Shown here: positions 1 through 45,423 of the stretch, in pieces
Layout: every line of letters begins with the position of its first letter
Numbering within the stretch: position 1 is the first letter of the stretch
NCBI GenBank assembly: GCA_964016885.1
Contig: CAXHJY010001737.1
Location: forward strand, 112,046-176,045
Length of the DNA stretch: 64,000 bases
Source of the DNA: Eledone cirrhosa
Taxonomy: Eukaryota
Direction of reading: 5' to 3'
Translations under genes and position numbers: made by a program
Notes under the pieces: generated by a model
What the model was told of the DNA's origin: nothing
Seen by the model: only the letters and a program-made list of their open reading frames with translations
Databases searched by the model: none

Positions 1-4
1 AACA

Positions 5-1396
5 ATGGGCTCTAACGATTCGGCGGAAATAACTGATATTGTGGGGTTATTTATCGCCTTTAGACTCCAGGAAAAATTCAGCAATCTCCACGGCGGAATA
101 TACCGCGACGATGTTCTCCTCCTAGCTAAAAACCTTAATAACCAAAAACTAGAAAAACTACGCAAAGATATAAGAAAACTACTACTCGAAATAGGACTAA
201 CTATAACATATGAATACAACCTTAAAGTAGTTAACTTCCTGGATGTCACACTCAATTTAAACTCTGGTTTGATTAAACCGCTTCATAAATTGAATGAAAA
301 TCTCAAATACGTAAATGTTGGGTCTAACCACCCCATCTCTATAATTAAATCTATCCCTAAAAATATTTCCCTTAGAATCTCGGGTCTATCTTCTAACATA
401 CAAGTATTTAAGGAACACGCCGAGTACTACGATAACGCCCTTAGTAAAGCAGGCTACCTCAACAAAATAGAGTACATAGATGGGAACAATCAAAACACCC
501 AAAATAAATCCCACATAGGTAGATATAATAACACAACACCAAACCACACTTACTACCATAGTATGCACACCAATAAACCAACAAACAAAACTAATAGAAA
601 GCGATGCAAAGAGTACTTATGGTATAACCCTGAATACAATAGCTCCATTAGTACAAATTTACCAGTACTCTTCTTTAAAATAATTAAAAGACATTTTCCC
701 ACATCACACAAATACCACAAAATCCTAAACCCTACCACTATAAGACTGTCATACTCTACAGCGTTAAACCTTGAACAACACATAAAAAAGATCAATACTA
801 GAAGGTTAAACGAAAACACTAAGAACTTAAGTACAAAGAACACAAAAAAAGCAGTAGACAATACACTACAGAACATAAATAAACCACACCTAAGTTCGTC
901 CGCAATACTACTCCAGAGAAAACCCAACGTACACAACTGTAACTGCACCTATCCTGACAACTGCCCCCTCGGCAATAACTGCCTGGAAAAAAATATTATT
1001 TATAAGTGTACCATTAAATCCGGAGGCAACGAGTGGTATTACGTGGGATCAACGGCAACATCGTTTAAATCTCGATTGTATAGGCATTCTTACTCAATAA
1101 AACACCAGAGCCAAAGAAATGTAACAACTTTAGCAGAAAAAGCTTGGACGCTCAGGGATAGCGATCAAAAGTTTACCCTAAAATGGGAAAAATTAGCTAA
1201 AACCCAAAGCTTTTCCAGGAGCCAAAATTTCTGCAAATTGTGTAATCTTGAGATTTATTACATAATCACGCACAAGAAGAAACTGCTGAATAACAGAATT
1301 GAACGAACATTATTCTGCCGTCACAGAACTAAAACCCTTTTTTTCCCACTACAAGCCGAATATTACATAAAAGAGGGACATCCCCCAACTATATAA
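5..1396 (+). CDS. Penelope-like element ORF, 5'-truncated by the window edge: RT C-terminal half, thumb, CxCx5C linker and C-terminal GIY-YIG endonuclease
   Basis: RT motifs MGSNDSAEITDIVGL, GIYRDD and VNFLDVTL. Linker CNCTYPDNCP. GIY-YIG-like IIYKC...YVGSTATSFKSRLYRH, then CKLCNLE. Confidence 0.93.
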   Translation: MGSNDSAEITDIVGLFIAFRLQEKFSNLHGGIYRDDVLLLAKNLNNQKLEKLRKDIRKLLLEIGLTITYEYNLKVVNFLDVTLNLNSGLIKPLHKLNENLKYVNVGSNHPISIIKSIPKNISLRISGLSSNIQVFKEHAEYYDNALSKAGYLNKIEYIDGNNQNTQNKSHIGRYNNTTPNHTYYHSMHTNKPTNKTNRKRCKEYLWYNPEYNSSISTNLPVLFFKIIKRHFPTSHKYHKILNPTTIRLSYSTALNLEQHIKKINTRRLNENTKNLSTKNTKKAVDNTLQNINKPHLSSSAILLQRKPNVHNCNCTYPDNCPLGNNCLEKNIIYKCTIKSGGNEWYYVGSTATSFKSRLYRHSYSIKHQSQRNVTTLAEKAWTLRDSDQKFTLKWEKLAKTQSFSRSQNFCKLCNLEIYYIITHKKKLLNNRIERTLFCRHRTKTLFFPLQAEYYIKEGHPPTI

Positions 1397-1637
1397 ACCT
1401 TAATCTAGTTAGAAAAATATAAAAACAATCTCTTCTCAACATATATTAATAACCTTAAATTACCATACTAATAATGGAAAGATATGCTGATGAGAATAGG
1501 TACAAATATGCGATAATGAATGTGTCTAAAAACGTCCATAAGTATGTATATATATGTGAAAATGTATATAAATAAGTAAATATATATATATGTTTGATGT
1601 GTATAGTTAGATGTAAGTGTATTCATGTATTAAAGTG

Positions 1638-1680
<43 letters not shown>

Positions 1681-2227
1681 ATGTATGTATGTGTATATGG
1701 ATGTGTATGTATGTGTATGTGTGTACACATGGACTAGAGTATGTATGTATATATGTGTGTGTCTATACGTGTGTATATAAAGATAAGTTGAGTATGAAAA
1801 TGTATACACATGAGCGCGTATGTATGTACATGAATACATGTGTGTATATATATGTGTATGCATGTGTATATATATGTAAGTATGAATATGTGAATTGTGA
1901 GTATATGTATTTGTGTGTGAATGCGTGGGTGAAAGGATACGTACACTTGAAAGAAAAATTTAAGTCTGAATGTTAATTAAGTGCAAACACAAAACCAACC
2001 ACGCATATCTTTACTATCTCTAATCCTTCTATAGATTTAGAAAAATAACCAATAATATATTCTATAAAAAATGTCAAAACAACAGATGGGAATCTAATTA
2101 CTCACTGCCACCAAGAATTCTCACTGCTATCGAAAAACCACTCCACCACTCCTTCAACTATTCCTCTAACAACTTCACCCCTCCCTCCTAATATTCTCTA
2201 TAAAAACTAAATAGGTCCTCAGTAATA

Positions 2228-2347
2228 TTATTCTGATGAAATGACAGTAAATAATAACATTGAAATATTGAATGTCTGCATAACTAAAAGTTTGTAGATA
2301 GCAGCTGTTTTAGGTTATGTAACTGTTATAGAAACACGTGTCAATAA
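2228..2347 (+). ncRNA. Type I hammerhead ribozyme with extended stem II
   Basis: Stem I TTATT/AATAA. CTGATGA at 2233-2239. Stem II base ATGACAGT/ACTGTTAT within a ~90-nt stem II domain. GAAAC-ACGT-GTC at 2331-2342 (palindromic ACACGTGT stem III). Confidence 0.8.
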
Positions 2348-2497
2348 ATTCCTTTCAACTAAACTGTATCCATTCAAATCTTTCTATTTTTCTCCGGATT
2401 ACTTTTGGAACTACAACTGGAACCGTCGAGCAAACTCTACGTGAGCTGATAATCTACTGTATGTAATATTTATATTACAACACAACGGAAAATACTG

Positions 2498-2528
<31 letters not shown>

Positions 2529-6633: not shown

Positions 6634-6676
6634 ACGTTGCTGACGATAGCTAATAAGCTTGAAACTAGTACAGCGT
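6634..6676 (+). ncRNA. Minimal type I hammerhead ribozyme (family A)
   Basis: ACGTTG-CTGACGA-t-AGCT-aata-AGCT-t-GAAAC-TA-GTA-CAGCGT, with palindromic stem III ACTAGT. Confidence 0.9.
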
Positions 6677-7055: not shown

Positions 7056-7098
7056 ACGTTGCTGACGATAGCTAATAAGCTTGAAACTAGTACAGCGT
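7056..7098 (+). ncRNA. Minimal type I hammerhead ribozyme (family A, second monomer)
   Basis: Identical to 6634-6676, 422 bp downstream. Confidence 0.9.
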
Positions 7099-10789: not shown

Positions 10790-11372
10790 TATGTATGTAT
10801 ACGTACATACATATATGTATACAGACGTACAATAGTATGTATATATATACATACATGCACATATATATATATGCACGTATCGGTTTACCGAACATTTATT
10901 ATAATTTCGTTTCATTCTATTCCATTTATCGTTTTCGGTGCGCCCGGCCGACTAAACTCACTCGATATGCAAATTAGGCTGCTCAGCGGTTAATATGCAT
11001 AAGGAAAGTATATACTTTCAGACGTTCAACCATCTGCCAGGAAGGTATACGATGCTGACGATAGCTAATAAGCTTGAAACTAGTACATCGTTCCTGTGAA
11101 AGTGTTGAACAAAAAGGTGACGTGGTTGGCTAAACACTGTACGGCGTAATTCGGGCTGTTTGTTTGTTTACAAACAAACCGAGCATTATAATAAATGTTC
11201 GTAAACCGATACGTGCATATATATATGTGTGCATGTATGTATATATATATACATACTACTGTACGTCTGTAAACATATATGTATGTACGTATACATACAT
11301 ACATACTTACATTTAAGTAACTGCCGTACTAAGAGTGAGAAATGAAATTTCGTTTCATTCTATTCCATTTAT
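10790..11372 (+). mobile_element. Family A retrozyme-like copy with inverted 5' segment
   Basis: About 10790-10905 is the reverse complement of ~11185-11300. The rest is a diverged ~1.1-monomer forward copy. Confidence 0.8.
11049..11091 (+). ncRNA. Minimal type I hammerhead ribozyme (family A variant)
   Basis: ACGATG-CTGACGA-tagctaataagctt-GAAAC-TA-GTA-CATCGT. Stem I shows a compensatory change relative to the 6634 copy. Confidence 0.9.
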
Positions 11373-12130: not shown

Positions 12131-12214
12131 TGCTTTTACCGATCGGTTTCACTTCACAAAAGATTGGAGATCCATAGGGACCTCCAATGGAAAAGTTTAG
12201 ATCATCAGAAAGCA
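12131..12214 (-). ncRNA. Type I hammerhead ribozyme (singleton family)
   Basis: Minus strand TGCTTT-CTGATGA-[stem II with hairpin attggaggtcc/ggatctccaat]-GAAAC-CGATCG-GTA-AAAGCA. Stem III is the palindrome ACCGATCGGT; the stem II base pairs weakly. Confidence 0.75.
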
Positions 12215-12508: not shown

Positions 12509-13057
12509 TATACACATATGCATACAGGTACACATACATATATGCACGCATCAGTTTAGCCGACGTTTATTATAACGCCTGCTTTGTTCGTTTGTTTGTC
12601 AACAAATCGAACAGCCTGAATTTATGTATGTATACATACATACATAAATTTATGTACGTATACATACATACTTACATTTAAGTAAGTGCCATACTAAGAG
12701 TGAGAAATGAAATTTCGTTTTCATTTTTTTCAACTTATCGTTTTCGGTATGCCTGACCAATTTAACTCACTCAATATGCAAATTAGGCTGCTCAGCCGTT
12801 ACTTTTCATAAGGAAAGTATATACTTTCGAACGTTCAACTATCTGGCAGATGGGTAAACGGTGCTGATGATAGCTAACAAGCTTGAAACTAGTACATCGT
12901 TCCTGTGTCAGTGTTGAACAAAAAGGTGACGTGGTTGCCTTAACACCGTATGGCATAAATTCAGGCTGTTCGATTTGTTGACAAACAAACGAACAAAGCA
13001 GGCGTTATAATAAACGTCGGCTAAACTGATGCGTGCATATATGTATGTGTACCTGTA

Positions 13058-17556: not shown

Positions 17557-17918
17557 GTATATATATAAACGTTTGTATATGTATAATAAAGCCAAAACAA
17601 TGCAGGTATGGACATAGAATAAAGAATGCAAATGCAAGAGATATTGTTGACAATTAGTCTTTTACCTTAGATTTATTTAAATATATAAATTTATTTTATA
17701 TATATATATATATATATATATGTAGATAAATCTACCAAGAGTTTACGGTAGTGTCCAATCCGTATGAAGAACTCAATGTATTCCGGATATCATGGAAAGA
17801 AGAGATGTAATGAAAAATCACTTTCGGTGAAAGATAAACGGTATACAGAGTCAAGATAAAATATTAAACAAATAATGAATAAAACAATGAAACAGTTCCT
17901 TATATTAAACAAAAAAAG

Positions 17919-18073
17919 TTCATTATTTAACGATCGTTTCTAGGATATATATGTGTTAGAATTGGCATGCATATTCAACAGATCTATGTACAAAATTATA
18001 CAAAATTATACAAACTATCAAGATTAAATATACATACCAAACACACATATACGCCGTCTTCAGAAATAATGAA
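17919..18073 (-). ncRNA. Type I hammerhead with extended stem II (left-arm copy)
   Basis: Reverse complement of 28519-28673. Confidence 0.82.
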
Positions 18074-18710
18074 ATATATTTATTGATAATAACAACAATT
18101 CAAAATTTCAGGTCCGTTTGGGAACAAAATTGACCAATGAAAATACAAAAGGTTTTATGCAGTTTGGTGTGTGTATATACATGTAACTACCCCGTACACA
18201 TATTTATACAAAGATGTATGCTCAACATGCATACGCATGCCAAAAAGATGCATGCAAATACAAAATTTCAAGGTTAATGTCTCTGTAAGTTTATAATGCA
18301 CAGATAAGATGCGTATAAATATGAAATAAGTGTATACACATATTCTCATACTCACACATATCCGTACACTCACACACACGCGCGCGTATATGCATAAACA
18401 TACACATAATTACGAACATACATACACACACACACCCCCACACACATATATATATGTGGATATAATATTATCATAAGCACATGGATATTAATTCACTCAC
18501 ATAAACACTGCCACACACATCTAGATCAAGATACAGAAATTAGGTGGGAGGGGGGGAGAGGTCAGTATTCAACGGTTTGGGCAGACTGCTTATTTATAGA
18601 TGTATCTATAAACTAAGAAATAAAAAATAAAAATTAAAAAGGAAAGAAAAGAAAAAGAAAAAGAAAAAAGAAAAAAGAAATATATCAAGAAAATATATAT
18701 ATATATATAT

Positions 18711-18757
<47 letters not shown>

Positions 18758-19401
18758 CATACACATATACACACATCTACACTTAGAACACACATACACA
18801 CACATATATAAACATATACATATACACACATACACACATATACACACATACATATAAATATATATATATATACATACACACATATATACACATATAATCA
18901 CACATACATATATAGACACACATATATATACACATACACGCACATATACATACACATACATACTTATATACATACAGATATACACATACATACCTATATA
19001 TACACACAAATACATACAGACATACATACATACATACACACAAATACTTACGCATCCATATATCGGTATATACATACAAACACCACTACACTCTCACACA
19101 ACTCAGACATACAAAGAAAAAGGTATATACCTATACACATATACACATACAAATAGAGATACATATACATATATATATATATATACACATATATATATAT
19201 ATATATACATACACATATACACACATATATATACATACACATACATACATGTACACACACATACATATACATACATACACACATATACACATACATATAT
19301 AGTCATACACACACATACACCTACACGAACATACACATACACATATATAAAGATATATATACACACACACACATACACACACACACATATATATAAAATA
19401 A

Positions 19402-19454
<53 letters not shown>

Positions 19455-20069
19455 CACATATACATAGACATATATGTACATACATACACATACATAAATA
19501 CATATACACACACATATATATATATATACACACATAGACACATACATACATACACACACAACATACATACACACACATATATACTCATACATAGACATAG
19601 ATATATATTCATACATACATACGCACTTACATATACTCATATATACAAATACATACGCATCCATATATGCGTATATACATATAAAACCCACTACACTCTC
19701 ACACAACTCAGACATACAAAGAAAAAGGTATATACATATACATATATACACACATTAATAGAGATACATATACACATATATATATATATATATACACATA
19801 CATTTATATATATACACCCACACACACATACAACCACAAACACACATACAAACACACACATACACACATATATACATACATATATATACACACACACAAA
19901 AAGCACACATACACATATATATTTTTACACATATATATACATATATATACATATACACACCCTCACATATACACACATACACATAAGTTATATTATAATA
20001 ATAAATAATATATATATATATATATATATACACATACGAATATAGACATATATACACACATAGATATAC

Positions 20070-20101
<32 letters not shown>

Positions 20102-21101
20102 TCACATATATATGTGCGCACACGTACATATATACACATACACACATATACACATAAACATATACATGTGCATACATGTACATACACACATATACCCACA
20201 TAGATACGAAGATAGACATATATATAGAGAGACATACATATATATACACATATATATATACACATACATACACACATACATATATATATATATATACACA
20301 CACACATACACGCCCACACACATATACACATATACACATATATATATATATACATATACACATATATATACACATGCATATATATACATATATATATATA
20401 TATACACACATATATATACACACAATCTTACATTCTTATTTGCATGCGCATATATGTATTTTTATATTCAGATATAAATACCCAAACATATATACACCTA
20501 CCTACATATATATTCATACATACACGCTTACAAACACAGATGATAATAGTATGGGGGAAAGGGGGGGGGGTTGGAGAAGGGGATTATAGTAAATATATGT
20601 TTCAAGAAACATAGAATATTATCTGTATCTGGATCCCAATATATGTTTTTACATAGTTTCAGTGTTAGGAAATACAAGAAATAAGGCAAAATTATGCATT
20701 TCAAAATAAGTATACCATTAATTATATGTTAACTAAACTAAAGATAGTTAACATATTGATTTCTAAGGTGTAAATTAGTTAGGTTTATAATATTTGAAGC
20801 AGAATTTTGAAGTTAAATAGTAGTAGAGTATTAATTATAGTATAACTAAATTAAAGTTATTAACGTTATGGTATCAATATTAGGAAATGAATTTAGTAAT
20901 AGGGAAAAAACAAATAAAGTATTACATCGATAGTAGAATATAAATTATAGGTTAACTAAATTAAAAATTATATATTAATTTCTATAGTATATGTTAATTA
21001 GGTATATAATAAATAAAACAGATATTGTATTTTATCAATAGCAGAATATAATTATATGCAAATAGAAATCAAAATTAATACATATACATATACATATACA
21101 T

Positions 21102-21164
<63 letters not shown>

Positions 21165-21656
21165 TACATACACATACATATACATACATACATATACATA
21201 TTTTTTCAAAAATTGCAAAGAATATATTAACTAGGTATACATCCAAAACACATCCCATTCTATGATTACATGACACTCTGCAATCCGTCTGTATAAGGAT
21301 ACTAATTTTAAGCCAATTAAATTAAATTTTTAGGTTGACTAAATTTAAAACCAAATTATAAATATATTTCTAAAATGTATATTAATTAGGTCTATAATAC
21401 TAAAAATTATTTCTCTGTCATTGGATACACGATATTTTGTTATATTTTATCTGTAAAGGAATTTTAATAAAAGGTTTAAATAAATTAAAATTAATCTATA
21501 AATTAAATTACTAAGTATATATTAGTAATATTTAAAGGTTTTTCACAATTTATGATTACACAATATTTTATATTCTCATCTGTAGTAGAATTTTAATTAA
21601 ATTAAATTTATAGGTTAACTAACATTTAAATTAAATTAATTTCTAAAATAATGTTA

Positions 21657-23193
21657 TTAATTAGGTTTATAATATTTAAATGTTTTTTTTAGTTTATGAT
21701 TACACGATATAATTAATTCCTGTCGTTTATTTAATAGGATATCCTTAGATTTCATTATTTCAAATAGTTCTTGGGAACATAATCTACATTCATTTCTATT
21801 ATTTTGATAAGGGGTGGCTCTTTTGAGCACACTCCAGGTCAAATCATATTCTATATTCTTATTTTTATAACTATTGATTTTTTCTGCTAGAGATGTTGTA
21901 TTAGCCAGTGCGGCATTTTTAAAACTATGCTTGTGGGTATTAAACCTTGTCTTAAAATTGTTAGAGGTAGCTCCTATATATGAGCAAATAGAATCTTTAG
22001 TTTTAACATTACATTTATAGACTATGTTGTTAACAAGACAATTCCCTTTTAATGGGCAGTTTGCTTTGTTTCTACAGTTACAACCTTTCGTTAATTCTGT
22101 ATTTGAGGAGATATTATGGTTAATTTGATGTACTGGTGGTATACTTATGGTTTTCTTACATTTATATGCATTATAGGCACTTATATTTTGTTTTATGTTA
22201 TTTGTTGTTGAGTATGAGAATTTAACTGTAGACCTATTTAAGATTTGATGGTATTTGTGGTTTGGCGGGAAGTTTTTCTCTAGGATATAAAAAATTTTTT
22301 TAGCAATATTATCCTTAATTTGTAAATTAAATGGAGCATTATACCAAGTAACCCGTCTATTACGGTTTCTATGTTGTTTATTATTTTTATTATTTTTATA
22401 GGTTGTATCGTGATGTTTACTAGGAGGATTAATGTTAATGATCTCACCACAACCATTTTTAGTTATATTTGTAGATTTAGGTGTTTTATCTTTTTTATTA
22501 GGAGTTTTATTATTAATATTTATTAGAGTTGTATGATGAGTAGTTTTTTGAGAGTTACTATATTTTATATTAGAAGATTTGGTATTTTGGGGTATAGTGT
22601 GGGTGGCATTTAGGTGTGTACTTTTCATTTGGTGTTTGTTGGTAATATTAGGTTGTATGCTTTTAGTATTTTTAGTAGAAGGTATATATTCTAATCTATT
22701 TTTGTGGCCACTTCTATCTAGAGCTTCGTTATAGAAGGTCGCATTTTTATCAAATACATCTTGGTTAGAAGAGAGGTTAGAAATTCTAAGTGATATATTA
22801 TATGCAAGGTTTTTAAGGATAGATTTAGGGTGATTAGATTGTGAGTGTATGTAATGTAAGTTTTGGTTTGGTTTATGGTAAGGTTGGTAGATACCCGTAG
22901 CTAAATCTAAAGTTATATCTAGGAAATTTACTACTTTACTTGTTTTTTCAAAAGTAATATGAAGATTATAATAGTCTTTAAGGAAAGTTCTAATATGTTT
23001 TTTGTTTTTTTCAATTTCTGAAAGGCTAAGGTTGTTAGAAAGAAGAAGACAGTCATCACGATATAAACCACCTTTGAGGTGGGGAAAGGAGGCATTTATG
23101 TTGAAAAGGAGAAAGAGGCCCACAAGATCAGTAATTTGGGCGGAATCGCTTGAACCCATAGTAATATCAAATAGATTACTATATGTGTTTCTG
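21657..23193 (-). pseudogene. 5'-truncated PLE ORF (RT C-terminal half, CxCx5C linker, GIY-YIG), uninterrupted frame
   Basis: MGSSDSAQITDLVGL, GLYRDD, VNFLDITL, CNCRNKANCP, IVYKC...YIGATSNNFKTRFNTH, CRLCSQE. Confidence 0.92.
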
Positions 23194-24934
23194 AAAACAC
23201 CTCCCAGGTAATTAACTGGTTTAAAAATATTAGATGTAAATCTTCTGCTTCATTTCTACAATTTGATATAGATAATTACTATTCTTCTATATCACCTATA
23301 CTCCTGAACAAAGCATTGATATTTGCTAAAAATAGATCTAACTTAACTTTGGATGACATTAATATTATTACACATGCTAGACTAACACTTATTGAATTTC
23401 AGAATGAATACTGGACCAGAAACACATATAGTAATCTATTTGATATTACTATGGGTTCAAGCGATTCCGCCCAAATTACTGATCTTGTGGGCCTCTTTCT
23501 CCTTTTCAACATAAATGCCTCCTTTCCCCACCTCAAAGGTGGTTTATATCGTGATGACTGTCTTCTTCTTTCTAACAACCTTAGCCTTTCAGAAATTGAA
23601 AAAAACAAAAAACATATTAGAACTTTCCTTAAAGACTATTATAATCTTCATATTACTTTTGAAAAAACAAGTAAAGTAGTAAATTTCCTAGATATAACTT
23701 TAGATTTAGCTACGGGTATCTACCAACCTTACCATAAACCAAACCAAAACTTACATTACATACACTCACAATCTAATCACCCTAAATCTATCCTTAAAAA
23801 CCTTGCATATAATATATCACTTAGAATTTCTAACCTCTCTTCTAACCAAGATGTATTTGATAAAAATGCGACCTTCTATAACGAAGCTCTAGATAGAAGT
23901 GGCCACAAAAATAGATTAGAATATATACCTTCTACTAAAAATACTAAAAGCATACAACCTAATATTACCAACAAACACCAAATGCCACCCACACTATACC
24001 CCAAAATACCAAATCTTCTAATATAAAATATAGTAACTCTCAAAAAACTACTCATCATACAACTCTAATAAATATTAATAATAAAACTCCTAATAAAAAA
24101 GATAAAACACCTAAATCTACAAATATAACTAAAAATGGTTGTGGTGAGATCATTAACATTAATCCTCCTAGTAAACATCACGATACAACCTATAAAAATA
24201 ATAAAAATAATAAACAACATAGAAACCGTAATAGACGGGTTACTTGGTATAATGCTCCATTTAATTTACAAATTAAGGATAATATTGCTAAAAAATTTTT
24301 TTATATCCTAGAGAAAAACTTCCCGCCAAACCACAAATACCATCAAATCTTAAATAGGTCTACAGTTAAATTCTCATACTCAACAACAAATAACATAAAA
24401 CAAAATATAAGTGCCTATAATGCATATAAATGTAAGAAAACCATAAGTATACCACCAGTACATCAAATTAACCATAATATCTCCTCAAATACAGAATTAA
24501 CGAAAGGTTGTAACTGTAGAAACAAAGCAAACTGCCCATTAAAAGGGAATTGTCTTGTTAACAACATAGTCTATAAATGTAATGTTAAAACTAAAGATTC
24601 TATTTGCTCATATATAGGAGCTACCTCTAACAATTTTAAGACAAGGTTTAATACCCACAAGCATAGTTTTAAAAATGCCGCACTGGCTAATACAACATCT
24701 CTAGCAGAAAAAATCAATAGTTATAAAAATAAGAATATAGAATATGATTTGACCTGGAGTGTGCTCAAAAGAGCCACCCCTTATCAAAATAATAGAAATG
24801 AATGTAGATTATGTTCCCAAGAACTATTTGAAATAATGAAATCTAAGGATATCCTATTAAATAAACGACAGGAATTAATTATATCGTGTAATCATAAACT
24901 AAAAAAAACATTTAAATATTATAAACCTAATTAA
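23193..24934 (+). pseudogene. 5'-truncated, frameshifted PLE ORF (right-arm copy)
   Basis: The spacer reads in frame NTSQVINWF...FLQFDIDNYYSSI (RT motif A). A 19-bp deletion near 23984 relative to the left arm shifts the frame. The C-terminus matches the left arm. Confidence 0.9.
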
Positions 24935-25426
24935 TAACATTATTTTAGAAATTAATTTAATTTAAATGTTAGTTAACCTATAAATTTAATTTAATTAAAA
25001 TTCTACTACAGATGAGAATATAAAATATTGTGTAATCATAAATTGTGAAAAACCTTTAAATATTACTAATATATACTTAGTAATTTAATTTATAGATTAA
25101 TTTTAATTTATTTAAACCTTTTATTAAAATTCCTTTACAGATAAAATATAACAAAATATCGTGTATCCAATGACAGAGAAATAATTTTTAGTATTATAGA
25201 CCTAATTAATATACATTTTAGAAATATATTTATAATTTGGTTTTAAATTTAGTCAACCTAAAAATTTAATTTAATTGGCTTAAAATTAGTATCCTTATAC
25301 AGACGGATTGCAGAGTGTCATGTAATCATAGAATGGGATGTGTTTTGGATGTATACCTAGTTAATATATTCTTTGCAATTTTTGAAAAAATATGTATATG
25401 TATGTATGTATATGTATGTGTATGTA

Positions 25427-25505
<79 letters not shown>

Positions 25506-26500
25506 ATGTATATGTATATGTATATATATTAATTTTGATTTCTATTTGCATATAATTATATTCTGCTATTGATAAAATACAATATCTGTTTTATTTATTA
25601 TATACCTAATTAACATATACTATAGAAATTAATATATAATTTTTAATTTAGTTAACCTATAATTTATATTCTACTACCGATGTAATACTTTATTTGTTTT
25701 TTCCCTATTACTAAATTCATTTCCTAATATTGATACCATAACGTTAATAACTTTAATTTAGTTATACTATAATTAATACTCTACTACTATTTAACTTCAA
25801 AATTCTGCTTCAAATATTATAAACCTAACTAATTTACACCTTAGAAATCAATATGTTAACTATCTTTAGTTTAGTTAACATATAATTAATGGTATACTTA
25901 TTTTGAAATGCATAATTTTGCCTTATTTCTTGTATTTCCTAACACTGAAACTATGTAAAAACATATATTGGGATCCAGATACAGATAATATTCTATGTTT
26001 CTTGAAACATATATTTACTATAATCCCCTTCTCCACCCCCCCCCCTTTCCCCCATACTATTATCATCTGTGTTTGTAAGCGTGTATGTATGAATATATAT
26101 GTAGGTAGGTGTATATATGTTTGGGTATTTATATCTGAATATAAAAATACATATATGCGCATGCAAATAAGAATGTAAGATTGTGTGTATATATATGTGT
26201 GTATATATATATATATGTATATATATGCATGTGTATATATATGTGTATATGTATATATATATATATGTGTATATGTGTATATGTGTGTGGGCGTGTATGT
26301 GTGTGTGTATATATATATATATATATGTGTGTATGTATGTGTATATATATATGTGTATATATATGTATGTCTCTCTATATATATGTCTATCTTCGTATCT
26401 ATGTGGGTATATGTGTGTATGTACATGTATGCACATGTATATGTTTATGTGTATATGTGTGTATGTGTATATATGTACGTGTGCGCACATATATATGTGA

Positions 26501-26536
<36 letters not shown>

Positions 26537-27143
26537 GTATATCTATGTGTGTATATATGTCTATATTCGTATGTGTATATATATATATATATTATTTATT
26601 ATTATAATATAACTTATGTGTATGTGTGTATATGTGAGGGTGTGTATATGTATATATATGTATATATATGTGTAAAAATATATATGTGTATGTGTGCTTT
26701 TTGTGTGTGTGTATATATATGTATGTATATATGTGTGTATGTGTGTGTTTGTATGTGTGTTTGTGGTTGTATGTGTGTGTGGGTGTATATATATAAATGT
26801 ATGTGTATATATATATATATATGTGTATATGTATCTCTATTAATGTGTGTATATATGTATATGTATATACCTTTTTCTTTGTATGTCTGAGTTGTGTGAG
26901 AGTGTAGTGGGTTTTATATGTATATACGCATATATGGATGCGTATGTATTTGTATATATGAGTATATGTAAGTGCGTATGTATGTATGAATATATATCTA
27001 TGTCTATGTATGAGTATATATGTGTGTGTATGTATGTTGTGTGTGTATGTATGTATGTGTCTATGTGTGTATATATATATATATATGTGTGTATATGTAT
27101 GTATGTATGTGTATGTATGTACATATATGTCTATGTATATGTG

Positions 27144-27182
<39 letters not shown>

Positions 27183-27699
27183 TTTTTTTATATATATGTG
27201 TGTGTGTGTATGTGTGTGTGTGTATATATATCTTTATATATGTGTATGTGTATGTTCGTGTAGGTGTATGTGTGTGTATGACTATATATGTATGTGTGTA
27301 TGTGTGTATGTATGTATATGTATGTGTGTGTACATGTATGTATGTGTATGTATATATATGTGTGTATATGTGTATGTATATATATATATATATATATGTG
27401 TATATATATATATATATGTATATGTATCTCTATTTGTATGTGTATATGTGTATAGGTATATACCTTTTTCTTTGTATGTCTGAGTTGTGTGAGAGTGTAG
27501 TGGTGTTTGTATGTATATACCGATATATGGATGCGTAAGTATTTGTGTGTATGTATGTATGTATGTCTGTATGTATTTGTGTGTATATATAGGTATGTAT
27601 GTGTATATCTGTATGTATATAAGTATGTATGTGTATGTATATGTGCGTGTATGTGTATATATATGTGTGTCTATATATGTATGTGTGATTATATGTGTA

Positions 27700-27732
<33 letters not shown>

Positions 27733-27832
27733 TTATATGTATGTGTGTATATGTGTGTATGTGTGTATATGTATATGTTTATATATGTGTGTGTATGTGT
27801 GTTCTAAGTGTAGATGTGTGTATATGTGTATG

Positions 27833-27897
<65 letters not shown>

Positions 27898-28518
27898 TTT
27901 CTTGATATATTTCTTTTTTCTTTTTTCTTTTTCTTTTCTTTCCTTTTTAATTTTTATTTTTTATTTCTTAGTTTATAGATACATCTATAAATAAGCAGTC
28001 TGCCCAAACCGTTGAATACTGACCTCTCCCCCCCTCCCACCTAATTTCTGTATCTTGATCTAGATGTGTGTGGCAGTGTTTATGTGAGTGAATTAATATC
28101 CATGTGCTTATGATAATATTATATCCACATATATATATGTGTGTGGGGGTGTGTGTGTGTATGTATGTTCGTAATTATGTGTATGTTTATGCATATACGC
28201 GCGCGTGTGTGTGAGTGTACGGATATGTGTGAGTATGAGAATATGTGTATACACTTATTTCATATTTATGTGTCTATACGCATCTTATCTGTGCATTATA
28301 AACTTACAGAGACATTAACCTTGAAATTTTGTATTTGCATGCATCTTTTTGGCATGCGTATGCATGTTGAGCATACATCTTTGTATAAATATGTGTACGG
28401 GGTAGTTACATGTATATACACACACCAAACTGCATAAAACCTTTTGTATTTTCATTGGTCAATTTTGTTCCCAAACGGACCTGAAATTTTGAATTGTTGT
28501 TATTATCAATAAATATAT

Positions 28519-28673
28519 TTCATTATTTCTGAAGACGGCGTATATGTGTGTTTGGTATGTATATTTAATCTTGATAGTTTGTATAATTTTGTATAATTTT
28601 GTACATAGATCTGTTGAATATGCATGCCAATTCTAACACATATATATCCTAGAAACGATCGTTAAATAATGAA
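28519..28673 (+). ncRNA. Type I hammerhead with extended stem II (right-arm copy)
   Basis: 10-bp stem I TTCATTATTT/AAATAATGAA. CTGAAGA at 28529-28535. Stem II tatatgtgtgtt/aacacatatata plus ttggtatgtatatt/aatatgcatgccaa. GAAAC-GATC-GTT (palindrome AACGATCGTT). Confidence 0.82.
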
Positions 28674-28891
28674 CTTTTTTTGTTTAATATAAGGAACTGT
28701 TTCATTGTTTTATTCATTATTTGTTTAATATTTTATATATATATATATATAGTCTTGATATATATTCGAGTATTTATTGTTAGCCGGTGTTTACATTACT
28801 GTGATCTTCAAACGTGAAGTCTCACCTGGAGATTGCAATTGCAAGAAAATCGATTAATGAAAATGATGATTCAGTACAAATTTAATATATA

Positions 28892-30231: not shown

Positions 30232-30285
30232 TTATCTGTCTATCAATATCTATCAATATCTAACTATCTAAAACATATCTATCTA
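30110..30285. repeat. (TATC)n/GATA microsatellite, apparent LINE target
   Basis: Read directly; the LINE 3' ends downstream also terminate in tatc repeats. Confidence 0.9.
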
Positions 30286-30909
30286 TATTTTTATATCTTG
30301 TTATTGCCTCCTCCTTATTGAGGACGCCTTTTTATGTAAATTGTACTTGTCCCACTCTTTGATGCCCTGGTGGCAAATAAAAAGAAAGTTATCTATCTAT
30401 CTATCTATCTATCACCAGAGTATAGGTGAGGAAGATGAAAGATCAAGGGAGCACCCCCTCTCTGTGCTCCTGAGGAGAAGGGTTGCACACTTTTTTCGGG
30501 GGTGTGTGCGACCCCCCAAGGCGCCTCCTCCCTATTGAGGATTTTGTTATTAAATTTATTTTTGTTATATTTTATTTTATTTTTATATTTTGTTATTGCC
30601 TCCTCCTTATTGAGGACGCCTTTTTATGTAAACTCCCCCCATTGTACTTGTCCCACTTTTTGATGCCCTGGTGGCAAATAAAAAGAAAGTTATCTATCTA
30701 TCTATCTTGATAGAGTAAGACACGCTTCACATCGGCTCCGCTATTCCATCGGGATTTACCCTTACTATTGTAAGTACCGGATAAATTTTTCAGTGCAACA
30801 CATTTGGAACACTAACCCCTGTTATTTAGGGAAACATTTTTGCATTTACCCCCTTTTTAGGGGGTAAAATAAATATCTATTTTTGCCGAAAAATTTCTTT
30901 CTTGGCAGC

Positions 30910-32736
30910 ATGGCGGAAAAGATGGCAGACATGTCTGCCATTAGCTCTGCCACGCCCCCCAAGTCTGAAGAACAAAAAATAATTACAACAAAAGTAGACA
31001 ATGAAACAAACAAAGAAAATGAAAAAACAAATGTTAAGGAAAATGAGCAAACGGAAAACAAACAAACAGAAAATAATACAAATAACAACAGGGCAACTTT
31101 CGCCCAGAAAACAAAACAATCCATTACATACACACCAATTGACCTAACTGCCGCCAGAGAAAAACTGGCCGAAGCAAAGAAACACATTGTTTTGGGGGAG
31201 AACGGAATGTTTTCCATTAACTCCCCCCCAGAATTCAAGAAAGAACAGAGAACACAGTTCTCTTCAGAACTATACTGAACCAGACAAGAAAGCCAGCACA
31301 GCCCAGCCAAATGGAAATAGAGTTAGTCCTAAAAGACTATATGAAGAATATTCTCTTCATACGAAAGGAGCGACTCTATGGCAGCATTTCGGTCCTAACA
31401 AGTGACAAGGAAACGGCGGAGAAGCTTTCCCTAAGCCCACTCTCATCGACAACATACAGCTTCTATCCCTCCTACATGGGTAGAAGAACACAGAGAGTAA
31501 AAGTAAAAACAATGCTGCCCACAATGGACTTCTGGTGGGCTATTGCTGGCTTCATAGACATGGGCGAAGACACAATCCTGTCAATGGGGAAGGCAACTGG
31601 AGATGCGTTCCTGGGAATGGGCCTCGACATACTAGTCCAAATGAGGCCCGAAAGAATAGCACAAATCCCGGATCGCATCTGGCTGGATGACCTTACCCCA
31701 ATAGACATAATTGTAGAGGGGAGAAGACCAGCATGCTATTTATGCATGGAAAGGGGACACGTTAAGGCTAACTGCCCGAAACGTATCCCCCAAAAAGGAC
31801 TATTGCCCACACCCACCACAAACAGTACACCAACACCACCCACCTCCAAAAATACACTAATACCACACACAGCAAACAAAATACAGACACCACCAACCAC
31901 AAACACAACACAAACATCACCACCACCAGCACCAAACACAAGCACGACACAAAAATCACCACCACCAACCACAACACAAACATCACCACCACCATCACCA
32001 ACCACAAGCATGACACAAAAATAACCACCACCACCACAAAACCCATTCCAAACAAATAATAAAAAAAACAGTAACAAATCTACCCCTCCCGCAAAAAAAC
32101 AACAACCACACAACACGTCCCTCCCACCTAGCGCTGAAGAGTTTCCCCCAACTTCTGAAGAAGAAGGAGGAGAAGCCTTCAGACAAGTTAAAAGAAAAAA
32201 AAGAAAACACACACCCAGCACACCACAAATAACCCACACACAAACACCAACTCCAATCAAAAACACCCCACCCTCAACAAACAAAAATAAATCTGCGCCT
32301 CCCCTCTCCGAAACATTGACAGCATCACAAAAAAGACGTTGCAATACACATATATAAATAAAGAAAACAAAAAACTGGTTAAATTAATAAACAATAACCC
32401 TATGGTGCAGACCGAAGGGCCAAACTTTATCTCAACAGAGAACTTCACCCATTTAAAAATGATAAAGGTCCCTCTGGACCTTTATCGTTCCTTAAAAGAA
32501 CAATTTAGACGGGACGTGAGCCCCCCTGTTTAAAACCGTTGAATCGCGTCCTCTTGAAAGATTTCCCCATAACCGCCCCTCTCCCTGACACAACTCCAAA
32601 TACCCCAACCCCACCACACACGTGTACCCCCACACCACCACAAAACATCCCTCCACCCAACACACCTGATGCCATGGAAATTACGCAACCCGGAGAGGTA
32701 AGTGCTTTTCTTTCTTCACTTTCAACACCAAAATAG
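30910..32736 (+). pseudogene. LINE ORF1 (gag-like, CCHC zinc knuckle), disrupted
   Basis: ATG at 30910. CYLCMERGHVKANC knuckle and a Pro/Thr-rich tail. 4-bp deletion near 31243 and a premature stop at 32024 relative to copy 2. Confidence 0.8.
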
Positions 32737-35700
32737 ATCAATTGAGAGTTGGCTGTTTGAACGCGCGTGGCCTGGGCTCAGCTTGGAAGCAAGCAAAGCT
32801 TCTAAGTGACCTCAGGTCACAAAGTATAGATGTGATGGTTGTTTGCGAGAGTCGGATCAGCAGCGTGAGACAGCTGGCGCCCGCCTTCGATGACTTTGAG
32901 ATGCACGCATCTCTCTGTCAACCCGGAGGCGGGGGGGAGTTGCCGTACTGCTGGATCAACGTCTGACTCTCGACGTACAGATTGTTCACTCGGACCCGGG
33001 GAGTCGATTACTGGTGCTGGACGTCGGAGGCGGTGAAGGCGGGGCTTTCAGACTGGTCGGTCTTTATGCTCCCTTCGGGGCGGAAAGAGCCGACTTCTTC
33101 CAGCGTCTGGAGACTTTTCTAGGAACGTCGCGTTCCCTGCTTTTAGTGGGGGACTGGAATGGAATCCTAGATGCGCGTTGGGACTATGCAGGGGCATGTC
33201 CCGATAGAGGGGGGTGTAGCAGCCTCAAGGGGTTACTCGATCGATTCGACCTGGTCGATAGATTTCGACTAGATTGTCCAACTGCGCCAACCTGGACCTG
33301 GGCAAACCGCAGTGGACAATCTAGATCGTACCTAGATAGGTTTTTGGTTAGGAGTAAGGATAGGGACGTATTTAGTTGTCCAGAACTGATCATGGTTGGC
33401 TATTCAGATCACAAATTAGTGACCTGCGTGGTCAACCTTGATAGAACGCATAGACAGGGTCCCGGTTACTGGAAGATGAACTTGTCCTTGCCGACAAAGA
33501 AAGATTACAGAAACCGGATTAGTAGCTTAGTTAAGATGCGGTTGACGGGAGCGATCGTCAACAGTAGGTGGTGGGTATCTCTAAAGAGAGAGATTAGAGT
33601 AAGTTCGATAGGTTACAGTAAGGAACTAGCGACAAATAGAAATAGGAAGGAAAGGGAGTTAACAGATAAACTAGAAGAGGCGATTAGGAGCGGAGACGTA
33701 GCCAGAGTGTTAGCGGCGAGAACGGCGTTGAGCCAGTTCTTTGACGGGAAGCACGAAGGCTGCGTTGTCCGAAGTAAAATACGTGCGTTAGGAAACGAGG
33801 GGACCAAATCTGTTAGCTGGGCCCGCGTGACAGAAGCCAAGAGTGGGATTAAATCCACCATTCGGTCTTTGCGAGACCAGGATGGACGGGTGATCCTTGA
33901 ACCTGAGCGGATGTGCGAGGCCTTTCAAAGGCACTTTGCTCGACTGTTCGGAGGGGGCGGGGGGCCGGACGGGGATGTGGACTTCGGTCCATACCTCGAC
34001 AGTCTACCGCGTCTTTCGAGCGGCGAAGCGGAGTGCTGCGAAAGGCCAATCACAGCCACTGAAATCGGGGAAGCACTCAGCCAATGCAGCAGACGCAAAT
34101 CTCCGGGTCTCGATGGTCTACCATACGAACTTTATTTAGCTATGCCGGTCTTGTTCTCCGAACTCCTCGAGGCTGTCTATTGCAACTGGCAACAGAACGG
34201 GAAAATTCCCTGTTCTGTGACCAAGGGCGTGGTCACGCTAGTGAGGAAGGACGAGAGCAAGGGGGACGACTTAAGTAACTTTAGGCCCATAACTCTGCTG
34301 AATGCAGAGTTACAGATTTTGGCCAAAGTGTTGGCGAAGAGGTTGGCGCTTGTGGTGGGTGGTTTGGTGGGAGACGCGCAGACATGCGCTATCCCGTCCA
34401 GGTCCATTCACGACAACCTCCACCTCATGCGATACATCATAGAGAGGGTTGGCAACGAACCCGGCTTTGGTGGGGCCCTGATCAACTTGGATCAATCTAA
34501 GGCGTTCGATAGGGTCGACCATGGTTACCTGGATGCGGTGCTAGCGGCGGCGGGCTTCGGACCCGTTTTCAGGGGCTGGATTTCTGCCATGCACAGTGGC
34601 AACATCTACTCTAGGATTAAAGTAAACGGCTACCTCTCGGAGCCGTTTCAAATCACCCGGTCCATCAGGCAGGGGTGCCCCCCTCTCCTCCCTTCTGTAC
34701 GTACTGACTCTCGAGCCACTGCTGCGGAAGTTGGAGTTGCTGCGGGGCATACCCCTGGAACCGGGATTGCACAAAGCGGTCTCGGCCTATGCCGACGACG
34801 TAACAGTAATGGTGGCGGACGCCTCGGAAATCGGGGCGATCGCCACCCTACTGGGGGAATACGAAAGGCTGACGGGGGCTAGGCTGAACCAGGACAAGTC
34901 AGTCGGTTTGCAACTCGGAACGTGGAGGGGCAAACCGATGCCGTTAGACGGTGTCGTCGGGCGGTGGACGGAGGGCCCGGTGAAGCTGCTCGGGGTCTGG
35001 TTCGGACCGGACCTCCAGGTGGAGAAGAATTGGGGCGAGGTGACGAGCAGGGTGTTTGCGCTGACCCAGAAGTGGGCCAAGTGCAAACTATCACTGAAAG
35101 GTGGGGCGGAGGTGACGAACGCTGACATAGCGTCCGTCATCTGCTACCGCCTGACCGTTGTGCCTTGCCCCAAGGAAAAGATCACCATCATGGAACGCAT
35201 GCTCTTCCAGTTCCTCTGGAAGAAGCGGCCTCCCATGGTGAGGAGATCCATCTGCTGCCAGAACCCTTCGAAAGGAGGGCTGGGTATGCCGTGGCTGTTG
35301 ATGCGTAGGCACGCATTGAGGCTACGGCATCTACAAGTATTCCTCAACGGTCAGCCGGTGTGGGCCCCGTTTGTGAGGCGAGCCTTCCCACAGCTCGTCT
35401 CGCTCACCGAACTGCAATCCTGTGTGAAGCAAAGACCGAGAAAACTGGGCAACTGGCACACCGAGTGTGCCCAGGCGCTCACGGCTATCTGGCAAGCGGA
35501 CCCGACTATCAGTGGAGAATCCACCTCGACATTCTATAGAGGGTTGGTGGCTAGCAAGGGCGACGACACCCTTGGAGAGTCGCTAGGCATGGAGGAGGAC
35601 GAACTGGCCAGCCTGTTCGGTAGAACTTTCGGCCCGGGACCCATGGACAACTTCCAGAGGTCCCTAGCCTGGCAGTGTTACCGAGGGGCTCTGCCCGTTC

Positions 35701-36170
35701 GAGAAAAGCTCTACAGACACGGGCGCCCGGGCAGGGATCCCGCGAAAAAGATCTGCCCCAGATGCGTGCGCGACGAGGAAACCGTTGCGCATGCACTGGT
35801 ACACTGCCCGGGCGTTGCCGATCTGTGGGGCTACGTCGAACGACTGCTGTCGCGTGTGGCGCCGATTCGATTAACCGCCGAGTCTGTGGTGAACATCAAG
35901 CCGCCTCCTCCCTTCAGAAATGAAGCAGAGGCGGTCTTTCTGTGCGTAATAGCCATGATGAAAGAGGTTGTGTGGTGGACGCGCCTGAAAGGTCTGAGGT
36001 CGGGTGACTTTCTCTCCGGCCATCACCTGGTTTACTTCTTCCGATACCACTTCGGAAGAAGGATCAGGATGGAGAGAGAAGTGCTTGGCCCCAGACAGTT
36101 TTATGAAAGGTGGGTGAAAGAAGCGAGAATGGCCCGTGTAAATGGGCCTTCTCTCTACATTGTTCTGTAG
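32733..36170 (+). pseudogene. LINE ORF2: APE endonuclease, reverse transcriptase and C-terminal zinc finger; frameshifted
   Basis: LNARG, GDWN, SYLDRF, YSDH (APE). PGLDG, FRPITLLN, LDQSKAFDRVDH, IRQGCP, YADD (RT). CPRC...ETVAHALVHC. Frameshifts near 32935 and 34685. Confidence 0.93.
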
Positions 36171-37034
36171 GTGAAGAAGTGAAGAGGAAAGGGGGAGCGC
36201 CTCCTCTCTGGGCTTCCCCCGCGAAAAGAGTTGCACACTTTTCGGGGGTATGTGCAATCCCCAACACGCCCCCTCCCTTTTGAGGACTTTTTATTGTTAT
36301 ATTATTATTGTTATTCCTTTTTTCTTTACTCGATTTATGTAAACTCCCCCACTGTGTAAATGTCCCCTTCTTTTGTGCCCTCGTGGCAAATAAATAGACA
36401 TTTATCTATATTTTTATATCTTGTTATTGCCTCCTCCTTATTGAGGACGCCTTTTTATGTAAATTGTACTTGTCCCACTCTTTGATGCCCTGGTGGCAAA
36501 TAAAAAGAAAGTTATCTATCTATCTATCTATCTATCACCAGAGTATAGGTGAGGAAGATGAAAGATCAAGGGAGCACCCCCTCTCTGTGCTCCTGAGGAG
36601 AAGGGTTGCACACTTTTTTCGGGGGTGTGTGCGACCCCCCAGGGCGCCTCCTCCCTATCGAGGATTTTGTTATTAAATTTATTTTTGTTATATTTTATTT
36701 TATTTTTATATTTTGTTATTGCCTCCTCCTTATTGAGGACGCCTTTTTATGTAAACTCCCCCCATTGTACTTGTCCCACTTTTTGATGCCCTGGTGGCAA
36801 ATAAAAAGAAAGTTATCTATCTATCTATCTTGATAGAGTAAGACACGCTTCACATCGGCTCCGCTATTTCATCGGGATTTACCCTTACTATAGTAAGTAC
36901 CGGATAAATTTTTCAGTGCAACACATTTGGAACACTAACCCCTGTTATTTAGGGAAACATTTTTGCATTTACCCCCTTTTTAGGGGGTAAAATAAATATC
37001 TATTTTTTTGCCGAAAAATTTCTTTCTTGGCAGC

Positions 37035-38857
37035 ATGGCGGAAAAGATGGCAGACATGTCTGCCATTAGTTCTGCCACGCCCCCCAAGTCTGAAGAACAA
37101 AAAATAATTACAACAAAATTAGACAACGAAACAAACAAGGAAAATGAAAAAACAAATGTTAAGGAAAATGAGCAAACGGAAAACAAACAAACAGAAAATA
37201 ATACAAATAACAACAGGGCAACTTTCGCCCAGAAAACAAAACAATCCATAACATACACACCAATTGACTTAACCGCCGCCAGAGAAAAACTGGCCGAAGC
37301 GAAAAAACAAATAGTCTTGGGGGAGAACGGAATGTTTTCCATTAACTCCCCCCCAGAATTCAAGAAAGCCAGAACAGAGAGCACAGTTCTCTTCAGAACT
37401 ATACTGAACCAAACAAGAAAGCCAGCACAGCCCTGCCAAATGGAAATAGAGTTGGTCCTAAAAGACTATATGAAGAATATTCTCTTCATACGAAAGGACC
37501 GACTCTATGGCAGCATTTCGGTCTTAACAAAAGACAAGGAAACGGCGGAGAAGCTTTCCCTAAGCCCACTCTCATCGACAACATACAGCTTCTATCCCTC
37601 CTACATGGGTAGAAGAACACAGAGAGTAAAAGTAAAAACAATGCTGCCCACAATGGACTTCTGGTGGGCTATTGCTGGCTTCATAGACATGGGCGAAGAC
37701 ACAATCCTGTCAATGGGGAAGGCAACTGGAGATGCGTTCCTGGGAATGGGCCTCGACATACTAGTCCAAATGAGGCCCGAAAGAATAGCACAAATCCCGG
37801 ATCGCATCTGGCTGGATGACCTTACCCCAATAGATATAATTGTAGAGGGGAGCATGCTATTTATGCATGGAAAGGGGACACGTTAAGGCTAACTGCCCGA
37901 AACGTATCCCCCAAAAAGGACTATTGCCCACACCCACCACAAACAGTACACCAACACCACCCACCTCCAAAAATACACTAATACCACACACAGCAAACAA
38001 AATACAGACACCACCAACCACAAACACAACACAAACATCACCACCACCAGCACCAAACACAAGCACGACACAAAAATCACCACCACCAACCACAACACAA
38101 ACATCACCACCACCATCACCAACCACAAGCACGACACAAACATTACCACTACCACCACAAAACCCATTCCAAACAAATAATAAAAAAAAACAGTAACAAA
38201 TCTACCCCTCCCGCAAAAAAAACAACCACACAACACGTCCCTCACACCTAGCGCTGAAGAGTTTCCCCCAACTTCTGAAGAAGAAGGAGGAGAAGCCTTC
38301 AGACAAGTTAAAAGAAAAAAAAGAAAACACACACCCAGCACACCACAAATAACCCACACACAAACACCAACTCCAATCAAAAACACCCCACCCTCAACAA
38401 ACAAAAATAAATCTGCGCCTCCCCTCTCCGAAACATTGACAGCATCACAAAAAAAGACGTTGCAATACACATATATAAATAAAGAAAACAAAAAACTGGT
38501 TAAATTAATAAACAATAACCCTATGGTGCAGACCGAAGGGCCAAACTTTATCTCAACAGAGAACTTCACCCATTTAAAAATGATAAAGGTCCTTCTGGAC
38601 CTTTATCGTTCCTTAAAAGAACAATTTAGACGGGACGTGAGCCCCCCTGTTTAAAACCGTTGAATCGCGTCCTCTTGAAAGATTTCCCCATAACCGCCCC
38701 TCTCCCTGACACAACTCCAAATACCCCAACCCCACCACACACGTGTACCCCCACACCACCACAAAACATCCCTCCACCCAACACACCTGATGCCATGGAA
38801 ATTACACAACCCGGAGAGGTAGGTGCTTTTCTTTCTTCACTTTCAACACCAAAATAG
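37035..38857 (+). pseudogene. LINE ORF1, copy 2 (disrupted)
   Basis: Homologous to 30910-32736. A small deletion at ~37850 frameshifts the zinc knuckle. Confidence 0.8.
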
Positions 38858-45070: not shown

Positions 45071-45113
45071 GTAATCTACGCGTTTCATTCTTGTTAGAAT
45101 TCATCAGGACTAC
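45071..45113 (-). ncRNA. Minimal type I hammerhead ribozyme (family B, 1 of 5)
   Basis: Minus strand GTAGTC-CTGATGA-ATTCT-aaca-AGAAT-GAAAC-GC-GTA-GATTAC, with palindromic stem III ACGCGT. Confidence 0.92.
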
Positions 45114-45380: not shown

Positions 45381-45423
45381 GTAATCTACGCGTTTCATTC
45401 TTGTTAGAATTCATCAGGACTAC
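45381..45423 (-). ncRNA. Minimal type I hammerhead ribozyme (family B, 2 of 5)
   Basis: Identical to 45071-45113, offset +310. Confidence 0.92.

What the first reader, a model, noticed from the sequence alone, without database searches (positions are those of the whole stretch)
2228..2347. Independent long-stem-II hammerhead after PLE copy 1
Seen: the same architecture as at 28519 (palindromic ACACGUGU stem III, ~90-nt stem II domain with inner pairing gcataac-taaaa/tttta-g-gttatgt, mismatched first pair) but unrelated primary sequence, downstream of a homologous ORF. Inference: the long-stem-II HHR is a conserved structural trait of this PLE lineage.
Basis: partly seen in the sequence, partly recalled or inferred. 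Interest (0 to 1): 0.7.

Follow-up and report, generated by a model that had tools for sequence, protein, structure and literature searches.

The report
Jumping-gene hammerhead with conserved long arm
This is the predicted self-cutting hammerhead RNA at the end of an abundant jumping gene of a known animal group, but one arm is about four times the published length and keeps the same shape and two small loops across four related families, which likely makes it a docking site for the element's own enzyme.

Summary
Real. Window 2228-2347 is a type I hammerhead (cut predicted after C2342) in the 3' UTR/pLTR of a young Hydra-clade Penelope-like retrotransposon (2,774 pattern matches, 0 control). 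Hammerheads in Hydra elements are published, but with 12-26 nt between the cores; here there are 91, folding as a rod (z -4.5). Three sister families (40-55% protein identity, one clade) keep the rod with compensatory changes, two A/G-N-U-(N)/UAG internal loops, and the outer loop exactly 17 nt from the core. The 28519 lineage has one such loop. Eight other Hydra families here have short arms (11-38 nt), so the trait marks sub-lineages, not the whole clade. Copies do not start preferentially at the cut site. Best reading: a dimer-dependent ribozyme whose arm is a protein-docking module; cleavage and binding are untested. This scan noted long-armed hammerheads before on other DNA; the conserved loops were not in those listings.

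The parts
2..1396 (+). 3' part of the Hydra-clade PLE ORF (RT, CxCX5C linker, C-terminal GIY-YIG-type endonuclease). This copy is 5'-truncated near the DKT motif about 600 bp left of the window and has one frameshift; intact sisters encode 782 aa.
   Evidence: no Pfam hit
1397..2387 (+). 3' UTR / pLTR of the element, with an internal TA/TG microsatellite; common 3' end at 2387, 45 nt after the predicted cut, followed by (TA)n in many copies
   Evidence: (38 of 117 hits end at 2387)
2228..2347 (+). Type I hammerhead motif; predicted cut after C2342
2240..2330 (+). 91-nt stem II arm, an imperfect rod; basal helix 2241-2248/2322-2329
2259..2313 (+). Two conserved internal loops: outer AUUG 2259-2262 opposite UAG 2311-2313 (ends 17 nt before GAAA); inner AAUG 2271-2274 opposite UAG 2299-2301
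   Evidence: comparative reading; RNAfold pairs some of these bases
2334..2341 (+). Self-complementary ACACGUGU: 2-bp stem III in a monomer, 8-bp intermolecular helix in a predicted dimer
2388..2505 (+). Read-through extension identical to the element's 5' UTR (lies directly before the ORF in tandem copies)
   Evidence: L063, L064, L065, L067
28519..28673 (+). Hammerhead of a second Hydra family (116-nt arm, one AGUU/UAG loop), 3.6 kb after ORF 23963-24934; inverted duplicate at 17919-18073
   Evidence: (5 of 6 ORF copies)

Best explanation
This is the hammerhead motif in the terminal repeat of a Hydra-clade Penelope-like retrotransposon, predicted to cut its RNA after C2342 mainly as a dimer, and its long stem II is a conserved RNA domain that likely serves as a docking site for a protein, most likely the element's own RT-endonuclease. 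Shown: core, position, linkage to the ORF, copy number, compensatory changes in the rod across four families, two A/G-N-U-(N)/UAG loops, fixed 17-nt distance from the outer loop to the core. Inferred: tandem-array transcripts bring two motifs together through ACACGUGU; protein bound to the loops helps folding or cleavage and/or marks the RNA as the template, with cDNA synthesis starting 45 nt downstream (the 2387 ends). Cleaved RNA does not seem to be the usual template for insertion.
For: Hydra motifs RWK, DKT, CxCX5C, CxxC..CxH (against Craig 2021 section 11). Hammerhead on both sides of the ORF in 4 of 5 full-length loci, unit 3.55-3.6 kb; inverted copy of window 2220-2387 abuts the 5'-truncated ORF. 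Two copies co-fold at -65.5 against -53.8 kcal/mol for two monomers; forcing the intermolecular palindrome helix gives -65.3. Helix outside the outer loop, second and third pairs: A-U/A-U (this family), G-C/U-A, G-C/A-U, A-U or G-U/U-A in the sisters; first inner pair A-U, G-C, G-C, U-A; outer loop found in 27 of 30, 5 of 6, 4 of 5 and 4 of 4 distinct copies, its commonest placement ending 17 nt before GAAA in all four families. The loop motif occurs in 10 of 19 long-arm families; the best motif of any kind reached at most 5 in 400 structure-preserving shuffles. Precedent: PLE hammerheads with palindromic stem III work as dimers (PMC4209133, PMC6765202); the Anolis PLE hammerhead cuts only with the element's protein, which AlphaFold2 predicts to be a dimer, and RT starts downstream of it (PMC11167929).
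Against: No binding or cleavage data. After collapsing related families the loop motif is in only 3 of 11 groups, which shuffles often match, so a clade-wide signal is not shown. Eight Hydra families carry short arms and no such loop was noticed by eye around their motifs, so the arm is dispensable for the clade. Stem I is five A-U pairs and does not form in the monomer or dimer models; the conserved G10.1-C11.1 pair is absent. Within the family there are no two-sided changes (0 of 26 pairs). With core-selected loci removed, core variation (3 of 1,200, 0.25%) is only modestly below the arm (0.5%) and flanks (0.54-0.77%). Element junctions at the cut site (10 of 23) are no commoner than at a control site (12 of 30 classified, 36 found).
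Confidence: 0.5

Rival explanations
1. The loops are RNA-RNA tertiary contacts: they replace the usual loop I/loop II docking, or bridge the two partners of the dimer, and no protein is needed.
For: Fixed 17-nt distance of the outer loop from the core in four families; stem I is weak and would need support; natural hammerheads use stem I-II contacts (PMC3088659).
Against: The outer loop sits about 13 bp from the junction, further than the 4-5 bp stem II of ordinary type I motifs, and I noticed no conserved receptor beside stem I in the four families (by eye).
Confidence: 0.2
2. The arm is a tolerated insertion: any closed helix II suffices, and the loops persist by descent only.
For: Arm length runs from 11 to 116 nt among families of one genome, with rods and a branched form; sister lineages differ; group-level motif test not significant.
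Against: Loop sequence and position stay fixed while the flanking pairs are exchanged and the ORFs diverge to 40-55% identity.
Confidence: 0.15
3. The motif no longer cuts; hammerhead and arm act as a structural landmark for where reverse transcription starts or where the endonuclease resolves the insertion.
For: A.A first opposition in the young copies, weak stem I, no excess of copies starting at the cut; element ends lie a fairly constant 42-70 nt after the cut site in most families; hammerhead mutants did not affect insertion in vitro in PMC11167929.
Against: Catalytic nucleotides are kept in the ORF-selected families (38 of 39 copies intact; no shared variant in 29 core and stem I/III columns); more diverged copies have an A-U first pair.
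Confidence: 0.15

Closest known systems
Hydra clade of C-terminal EN+ Penelope-like elements, e.g. Hydra-1_Obim (Craig et al. 2021, PMC8557442; passages, section 11, supplement parts 1, 2 and 52 read)
   Same: RWK, DKT, CxCX5C linker, CxxC/CxH, (TA)n targets, pLTR with type I hammerhead near the 3' end, inverted 5'-truncated copy; a mismatched first stem II opposition is common there too (U.U in many rows).
   Different: Published arms are 12-26 nt (3-7 bp plus 3-10 nt loop) against 91 here; published elements are mostly under 3 kb against 3.6 kb. The longest arms in File S2 are two plant PLE-X motifs of about 50 nt.
Metazoan PLE minimal hammerheads (Cervera and de la Pena 2014, PMC4209133; parts 1-2 of 4 read)
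   Same: Type I, short palindromic helix III, extra nucleotide at the base of helix II, predicted dimer action.
   Different: Their 'larger than usual' helix II is 7-8 bp; G10.1-C11.1 is conserved there and absent here; no internal-loop domain described in what I read.
Poseidon PLE of Anolis carolinensis, PAc (Frangieh et al. 2024, PMC11167929; parts 1-2 of 4 read)
   Same: Hammerhead in the pLTR, two alternative 3' ends downstream, no sign that cut RNA is the insertion template.
   Different: Other clade; its hammerhead overlaps the ORF start, whereas here the start codon lies about 200 nt after the cut.
Animal non-LTR retrozymes (PMC7229834, passages; bioRxiv 10.64898/2026.07.22.740005, part 1 of 5)
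   Same: Type I hammerhead with palindromic helix III.
   Different: Short non-coding tandem units; this motif belongs to a coding 3.6-kb element.

Membership tests
Hydra-clade PLE | Single ORF with RT and C-terminal GIY-YIG-type endonuclease | tested here: met
   782-aa ORF, YRDD then YYVG motif; Pfam gave no hit
Hydra-clade PLE | RWK and DKT motifs | tested here: met
Hydra-clade PLE | CxCX5C linker; CxxC and CxH around conserved E and N | tested here: met
Hydra-clade PLE | Insertion into (TA)n; pLTR and inverted 5' copy | tested here: met
Hydra-clade PLE | Generally shorter than 3 kb (descriptive, not strict) | tested here: not met
   3.55-3.6 kb unit
Hydra-clade PLE | RT groups with the published Hydra sequences in a tree | not tested
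   published consensus sequences were read but not used as input
Type I hammerhead | CUGANGA and GAAA cores, A15.1-U16.1, NUH triplet, open stem I | tested here: met
   GUC triplet 2340-2342
Type I hammerhead | Closed helix II next to the core | tested here: met
   8-bp basal helix, pair probability 1.0 at 2245-2325; different paired sequences in sister families
Type I hammerhead | G10.1-C11.1 pair (typical, exceptions known) | tested here: not met
   A.A in young copies, A-U in more diverged ones; U.U exception in PMC3088659
Type I hammerhead | Match to an Rfam hammerhead model | tested here: not met
   no hammerhead hit in 2150-2450 at E up to 10
Type I hammerhead | Self-cleavage at the predicted site | not testable with these tools
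   no RNA holder listed
Naiad/Chlamys PLE | N-terminal endonuclease | tested here: not met
   endonuclease is C-terminal
Non-LTR retrozyme | Short non-coding tandem unit | tested here: not met
   linked to a coding element in 49 of 53 ORF records

The most novel reading that the evidence does not exclude
Several octopus-like Hydra lineages have built their RNA recognition signal into the ribozyme: the twin A/G-N-U-(N)/UAG loops bind the (possibly dimeric) RT-endonuclease, which positions reverse transcription about 45 nt downstream and gates hammerhead cleavage. That would be a natural protein-switched hammerhead with a defined, previously undescribed loop motif, present in over ten thousand genomic copies that standard descriptors miss.
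Probability: 0.25. Interest if true: 0.75.

Novelty: new variant of a known kind. Interest (0 to 1): 0.5.

Why it matters
What hammerheads do in Penelope-like elements is unsettled (Craig 2021 calls the function unclear; in PAc the ribozyme needs protein and is dispensable in vitro). A conserved domain inside the ribozyme, with natural long- and short-arm sister families in one genome and intact young copies, gives a precise target for binding and cleavage tests. It also means hammerhead counts in such genomes are underestimates: three narrow patterns gave 2,774, 2,597 and 6,793 long-arm matches (controls 0, 32, 218; slight overlap).

Tried and rejected
Rfam: only microsatellite noise among the 150 listed of 383 window matches; no hammerhead in 2150-2450. 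Pfam: 0 families for 4 ORFs. Idea that the motif belongs to a separate fragment rather than ORF 1: rejected. A UUUGUA/URCAUA helix motif that I first noticed in three lineages: never formally tested and dropped; a loose trimer test of 3'-strand loop sequences was not above shuffles. I first linked the branched 95-nt arm (group G2) to ORF family F; one search showed F ends about 920 nt after its ORF with a short degenerate motif, so G2 has no assigned ORF. Excess of copies beginning at the cut site: none. No RNA holder listed; four runs held as contigs showed only the same family variants and the 2387/(TA)n end. Metagenome scan for the clade pattern: 81 matches, 0 with both stem I and a basal helix, none near a Hydra ORF. 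Sisterhood of the two window families: unresolved (all quick trees). Lunse et al. 2017 (PMC5785218) and Arkhipova et al. 2017 (PMC5850863) were not held and may describe longer arms; supplements of PMC4209133 and PMC3088659 were not read. Six paper searches showed no report of this arm or loop.

Full report
Observation. The window shows a type I hammerhead at 2228-2347: stem I UUAUU/AAUAA, core CUGAUGA (2233-2239), 91 nt, GAAAC-ACGU-GUC, cut predicted after C2342. The 91 nt fold as one imperfect rod at -26.8 kcal/mol, z -4.5, with 0 of 300 shuffles as stable. The motif at 28519 is of the same type but has a 116-nt arm and stem III AACGAUCGUU. The genome (3.0 Gb, 1,796 contigs) holds 2,774 matches to core-70..100 nt-GAAACACGTGTC and none to the reversed control. 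Rfam does not detect it.

What carries it. 25 of 29 other top-scoring loci run collinearly from the ORF into the motif, and 49 of 53 ORF records of the family have it about 930 nt downstream (loci overlap, and the 4 misses were not inspected). In 4 of 5 full-length loci the motif stands on both sides of the ORF, 3.55-3.6 kb apart. Left of the window an inverted copy of 2220-2387 abuts the 5'-truncated ORF. The 782-aa protein has RWK, DKT, CxCX5C and CxxC..E..N..CxH, the marks given for the Hydra clade in section 11 of Craig et al. 2021. Copies end at 2387, 45 nt after the cut, in (TA)n (38 of 117 hits), or read on into the 5' UTR (71 of 117 reach the query end at 2505) (the 2387 end also in three public runs). 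The family is young: 150 of 150 scored endonuclease matches were 99-100% identical. That the host is an octopus-like cephalopod is my inference from the microsatellite-rich sequence and an Argonauta homologue.

What is known. Hammerheads in Hydra elements are published; the 26 Hydra rows of File S2 have 12-26 nt between the cores and often a U.U first opposition. So the mismatched first pair is ordinary, and in this family it is variable (A.A young, A-U in more diverged copies). A palindromic stem III and dimer action are known for PLE hammerheads. The PAc hammerhead cuts only with the element's protein and is not needed for insertion in vitro. I found no account of a 90-nt arm in six searches, but two relevant papers were not held. 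Earlier unchecked notes of this scan report long-armed hammerheads on other DNA.

Is the long arm a lineage trait? Four protein queries retrieved further Hydra families. Eight have short arms: 11, 12, 13, 20 (core variant CCGAAGA), 26, 30, 36 and 38 nt (two of these rest on a single ORF-linked locus). Two pattern searches that excluded most of this family gave 2,597 and 6,793 further long-arm matches against 32 and 218 controls. In the loci fetched these fall into 26 sequence clusters, several of them single chance-like hits. Three clusters (85, 90, 90 nt) sit 410-550 nt behind ORFs 40-55% identical to this one (3 of 8, 2 of 9 and 3 of 4 upstream regions tested) and form one clade with it (99%). 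The 28519 family forms another clade with 97-99 nt relatives (98%). Short-arm families lie between the two clades in the trees; sisterhood is neither found nor rejected (p-AU 0.165).

The arm is a conserved domain. Within the family there are no two-sided changes (0 of 26 pairs), so the evidence comes from the sisters. Anchored on the outer loop, the second and third outer pairs read A-U/A-U, G-C/U-A, G-C/A-U and A-U or G-U/U-A, the first inner pair A-U, G-C, G-C, U-A, and the basal helices have different sequences that still pair. The loop itself is nearly fixed: AUUG (AGUG/AGCG in one family) opposite UAG (CAG in part of this family), with the commonest placement ending 17 nt before GAAA in all four families; it was found in 27 of 30, 5 of 6, 4 of 5 and 4 of 4 distinct copies (6 of the 27 were placed in another register by the script). 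A second loop of the same kind lies 7-8 bp further out (less regular in one family). The 28519 lineage has one such loop, and two ORF-less clusters show one or two in some copies. The motif A-N-U/UAG is in 10 of 19 families, while the best motif in 400 structure-preserving shuffles reached at most 5. Collapsed to 11 groups it is in 3, which is not above chance. The motif was spotted by eye before testing, and RNAfold pairs part of these loops, so their geometry is a comparative inference. Sister arms fold with z -1.9 and -3.8 (a third, 5 nt off register, -3.0). A separate branched 95-nt arm shows compensatory changes too but has no assigned ORF.

Mechanism. Two copies co-fold 11.7 kcal/mol better than two monomers, and forcing the ACACGUGU helix between them costs almost nothing, so cleavage, if any, is likely dimeric, as tandem transcripts allow. 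Stem I (five A-U pairs) does not form in the models, which suggests low intrinsic activity. Core conservation among young copies is weak evidence: 0.2-0.3% against about 2% when core-selected loci are included, 0.25% against 0.5-0.8% when they are not. Copies do not begin preferentially at the cut: 10 junctions of 23 there, 12 of 30 classified at a control site, in line with PAc. Sequence-conserved internal loops at a fixed distance from the core, in helices free to covary, fit a protein-binding site best (0.5); RNA tertiary docking (0.2), neutral insertion (0.15) and a non-cutting landmark (0.15) remain open.

Verdict. A genuine hammerhead motif of a known retrotransposon clade with an unreported, clade-conserved long stem II: new variant of a known kind, interest 0.5.

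Noticed in passing
window 1483-1534: A second, minimal hammerhead-like motif just after the ORF (UAUG-CUGAUGA-35 nt-AAAACGUC-CAUA) with A in place of G12 in all six commonest variants listed (32 hits); likely a relic. Another Hydra family also has two motifs in its UTR.
   Followed up: partly
window 17856-28736: Second Hydra family: 5.4-kb inverted duplication; 3.6-kb 3' UTR made largely of microsatellites, near-identical copies and 6.5-6.9 kb tandem arrays elsewhere.
   Followed up: partly
window 6634-6676, 7056-7098, 11049-11091, 12857-12901 (+); 45071-46353 (-): Short-arm (14 nt) hammerheads in tandem units of about 420 and 310 bp: ordinary non-LTR retrozymes.
   Followed up: no
window 12131-12214 (-), 46863-46932, 58031-58094: Further hammerheads with 51, 38 and 36 nt arms; parents not traced.
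   Followed up: no
L290:1495-1620:- and relatives (group G2): Abundant 93-97 nt branched arm (three-way junction) with compensatory changes; a 4.6-kb tandem unit between two copies showed no Hydra ORF, perhaps non-autonomous.
   Followed up: partly
L146:2500-2650: Family D uses a variant core CCGAAGA, with a degenerate CUGAAAA core about 45 nt upstream, as if a short-arm motif arose inside a longer one.
   Followed up: no
L376, L378, L383, L384: Fold-back junctions of family copies centred near the predicted cut site; similar inversions occur at other positions.
   Followed up: partly
window 30277-40614: Two partly duplicated LINE-like elements (APE-RT ORF2 and ORF1).
   Followed up: no
window 56030-56647: GIY-YIG endonuclease fragment of a different PLE type.
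   Followed up: no
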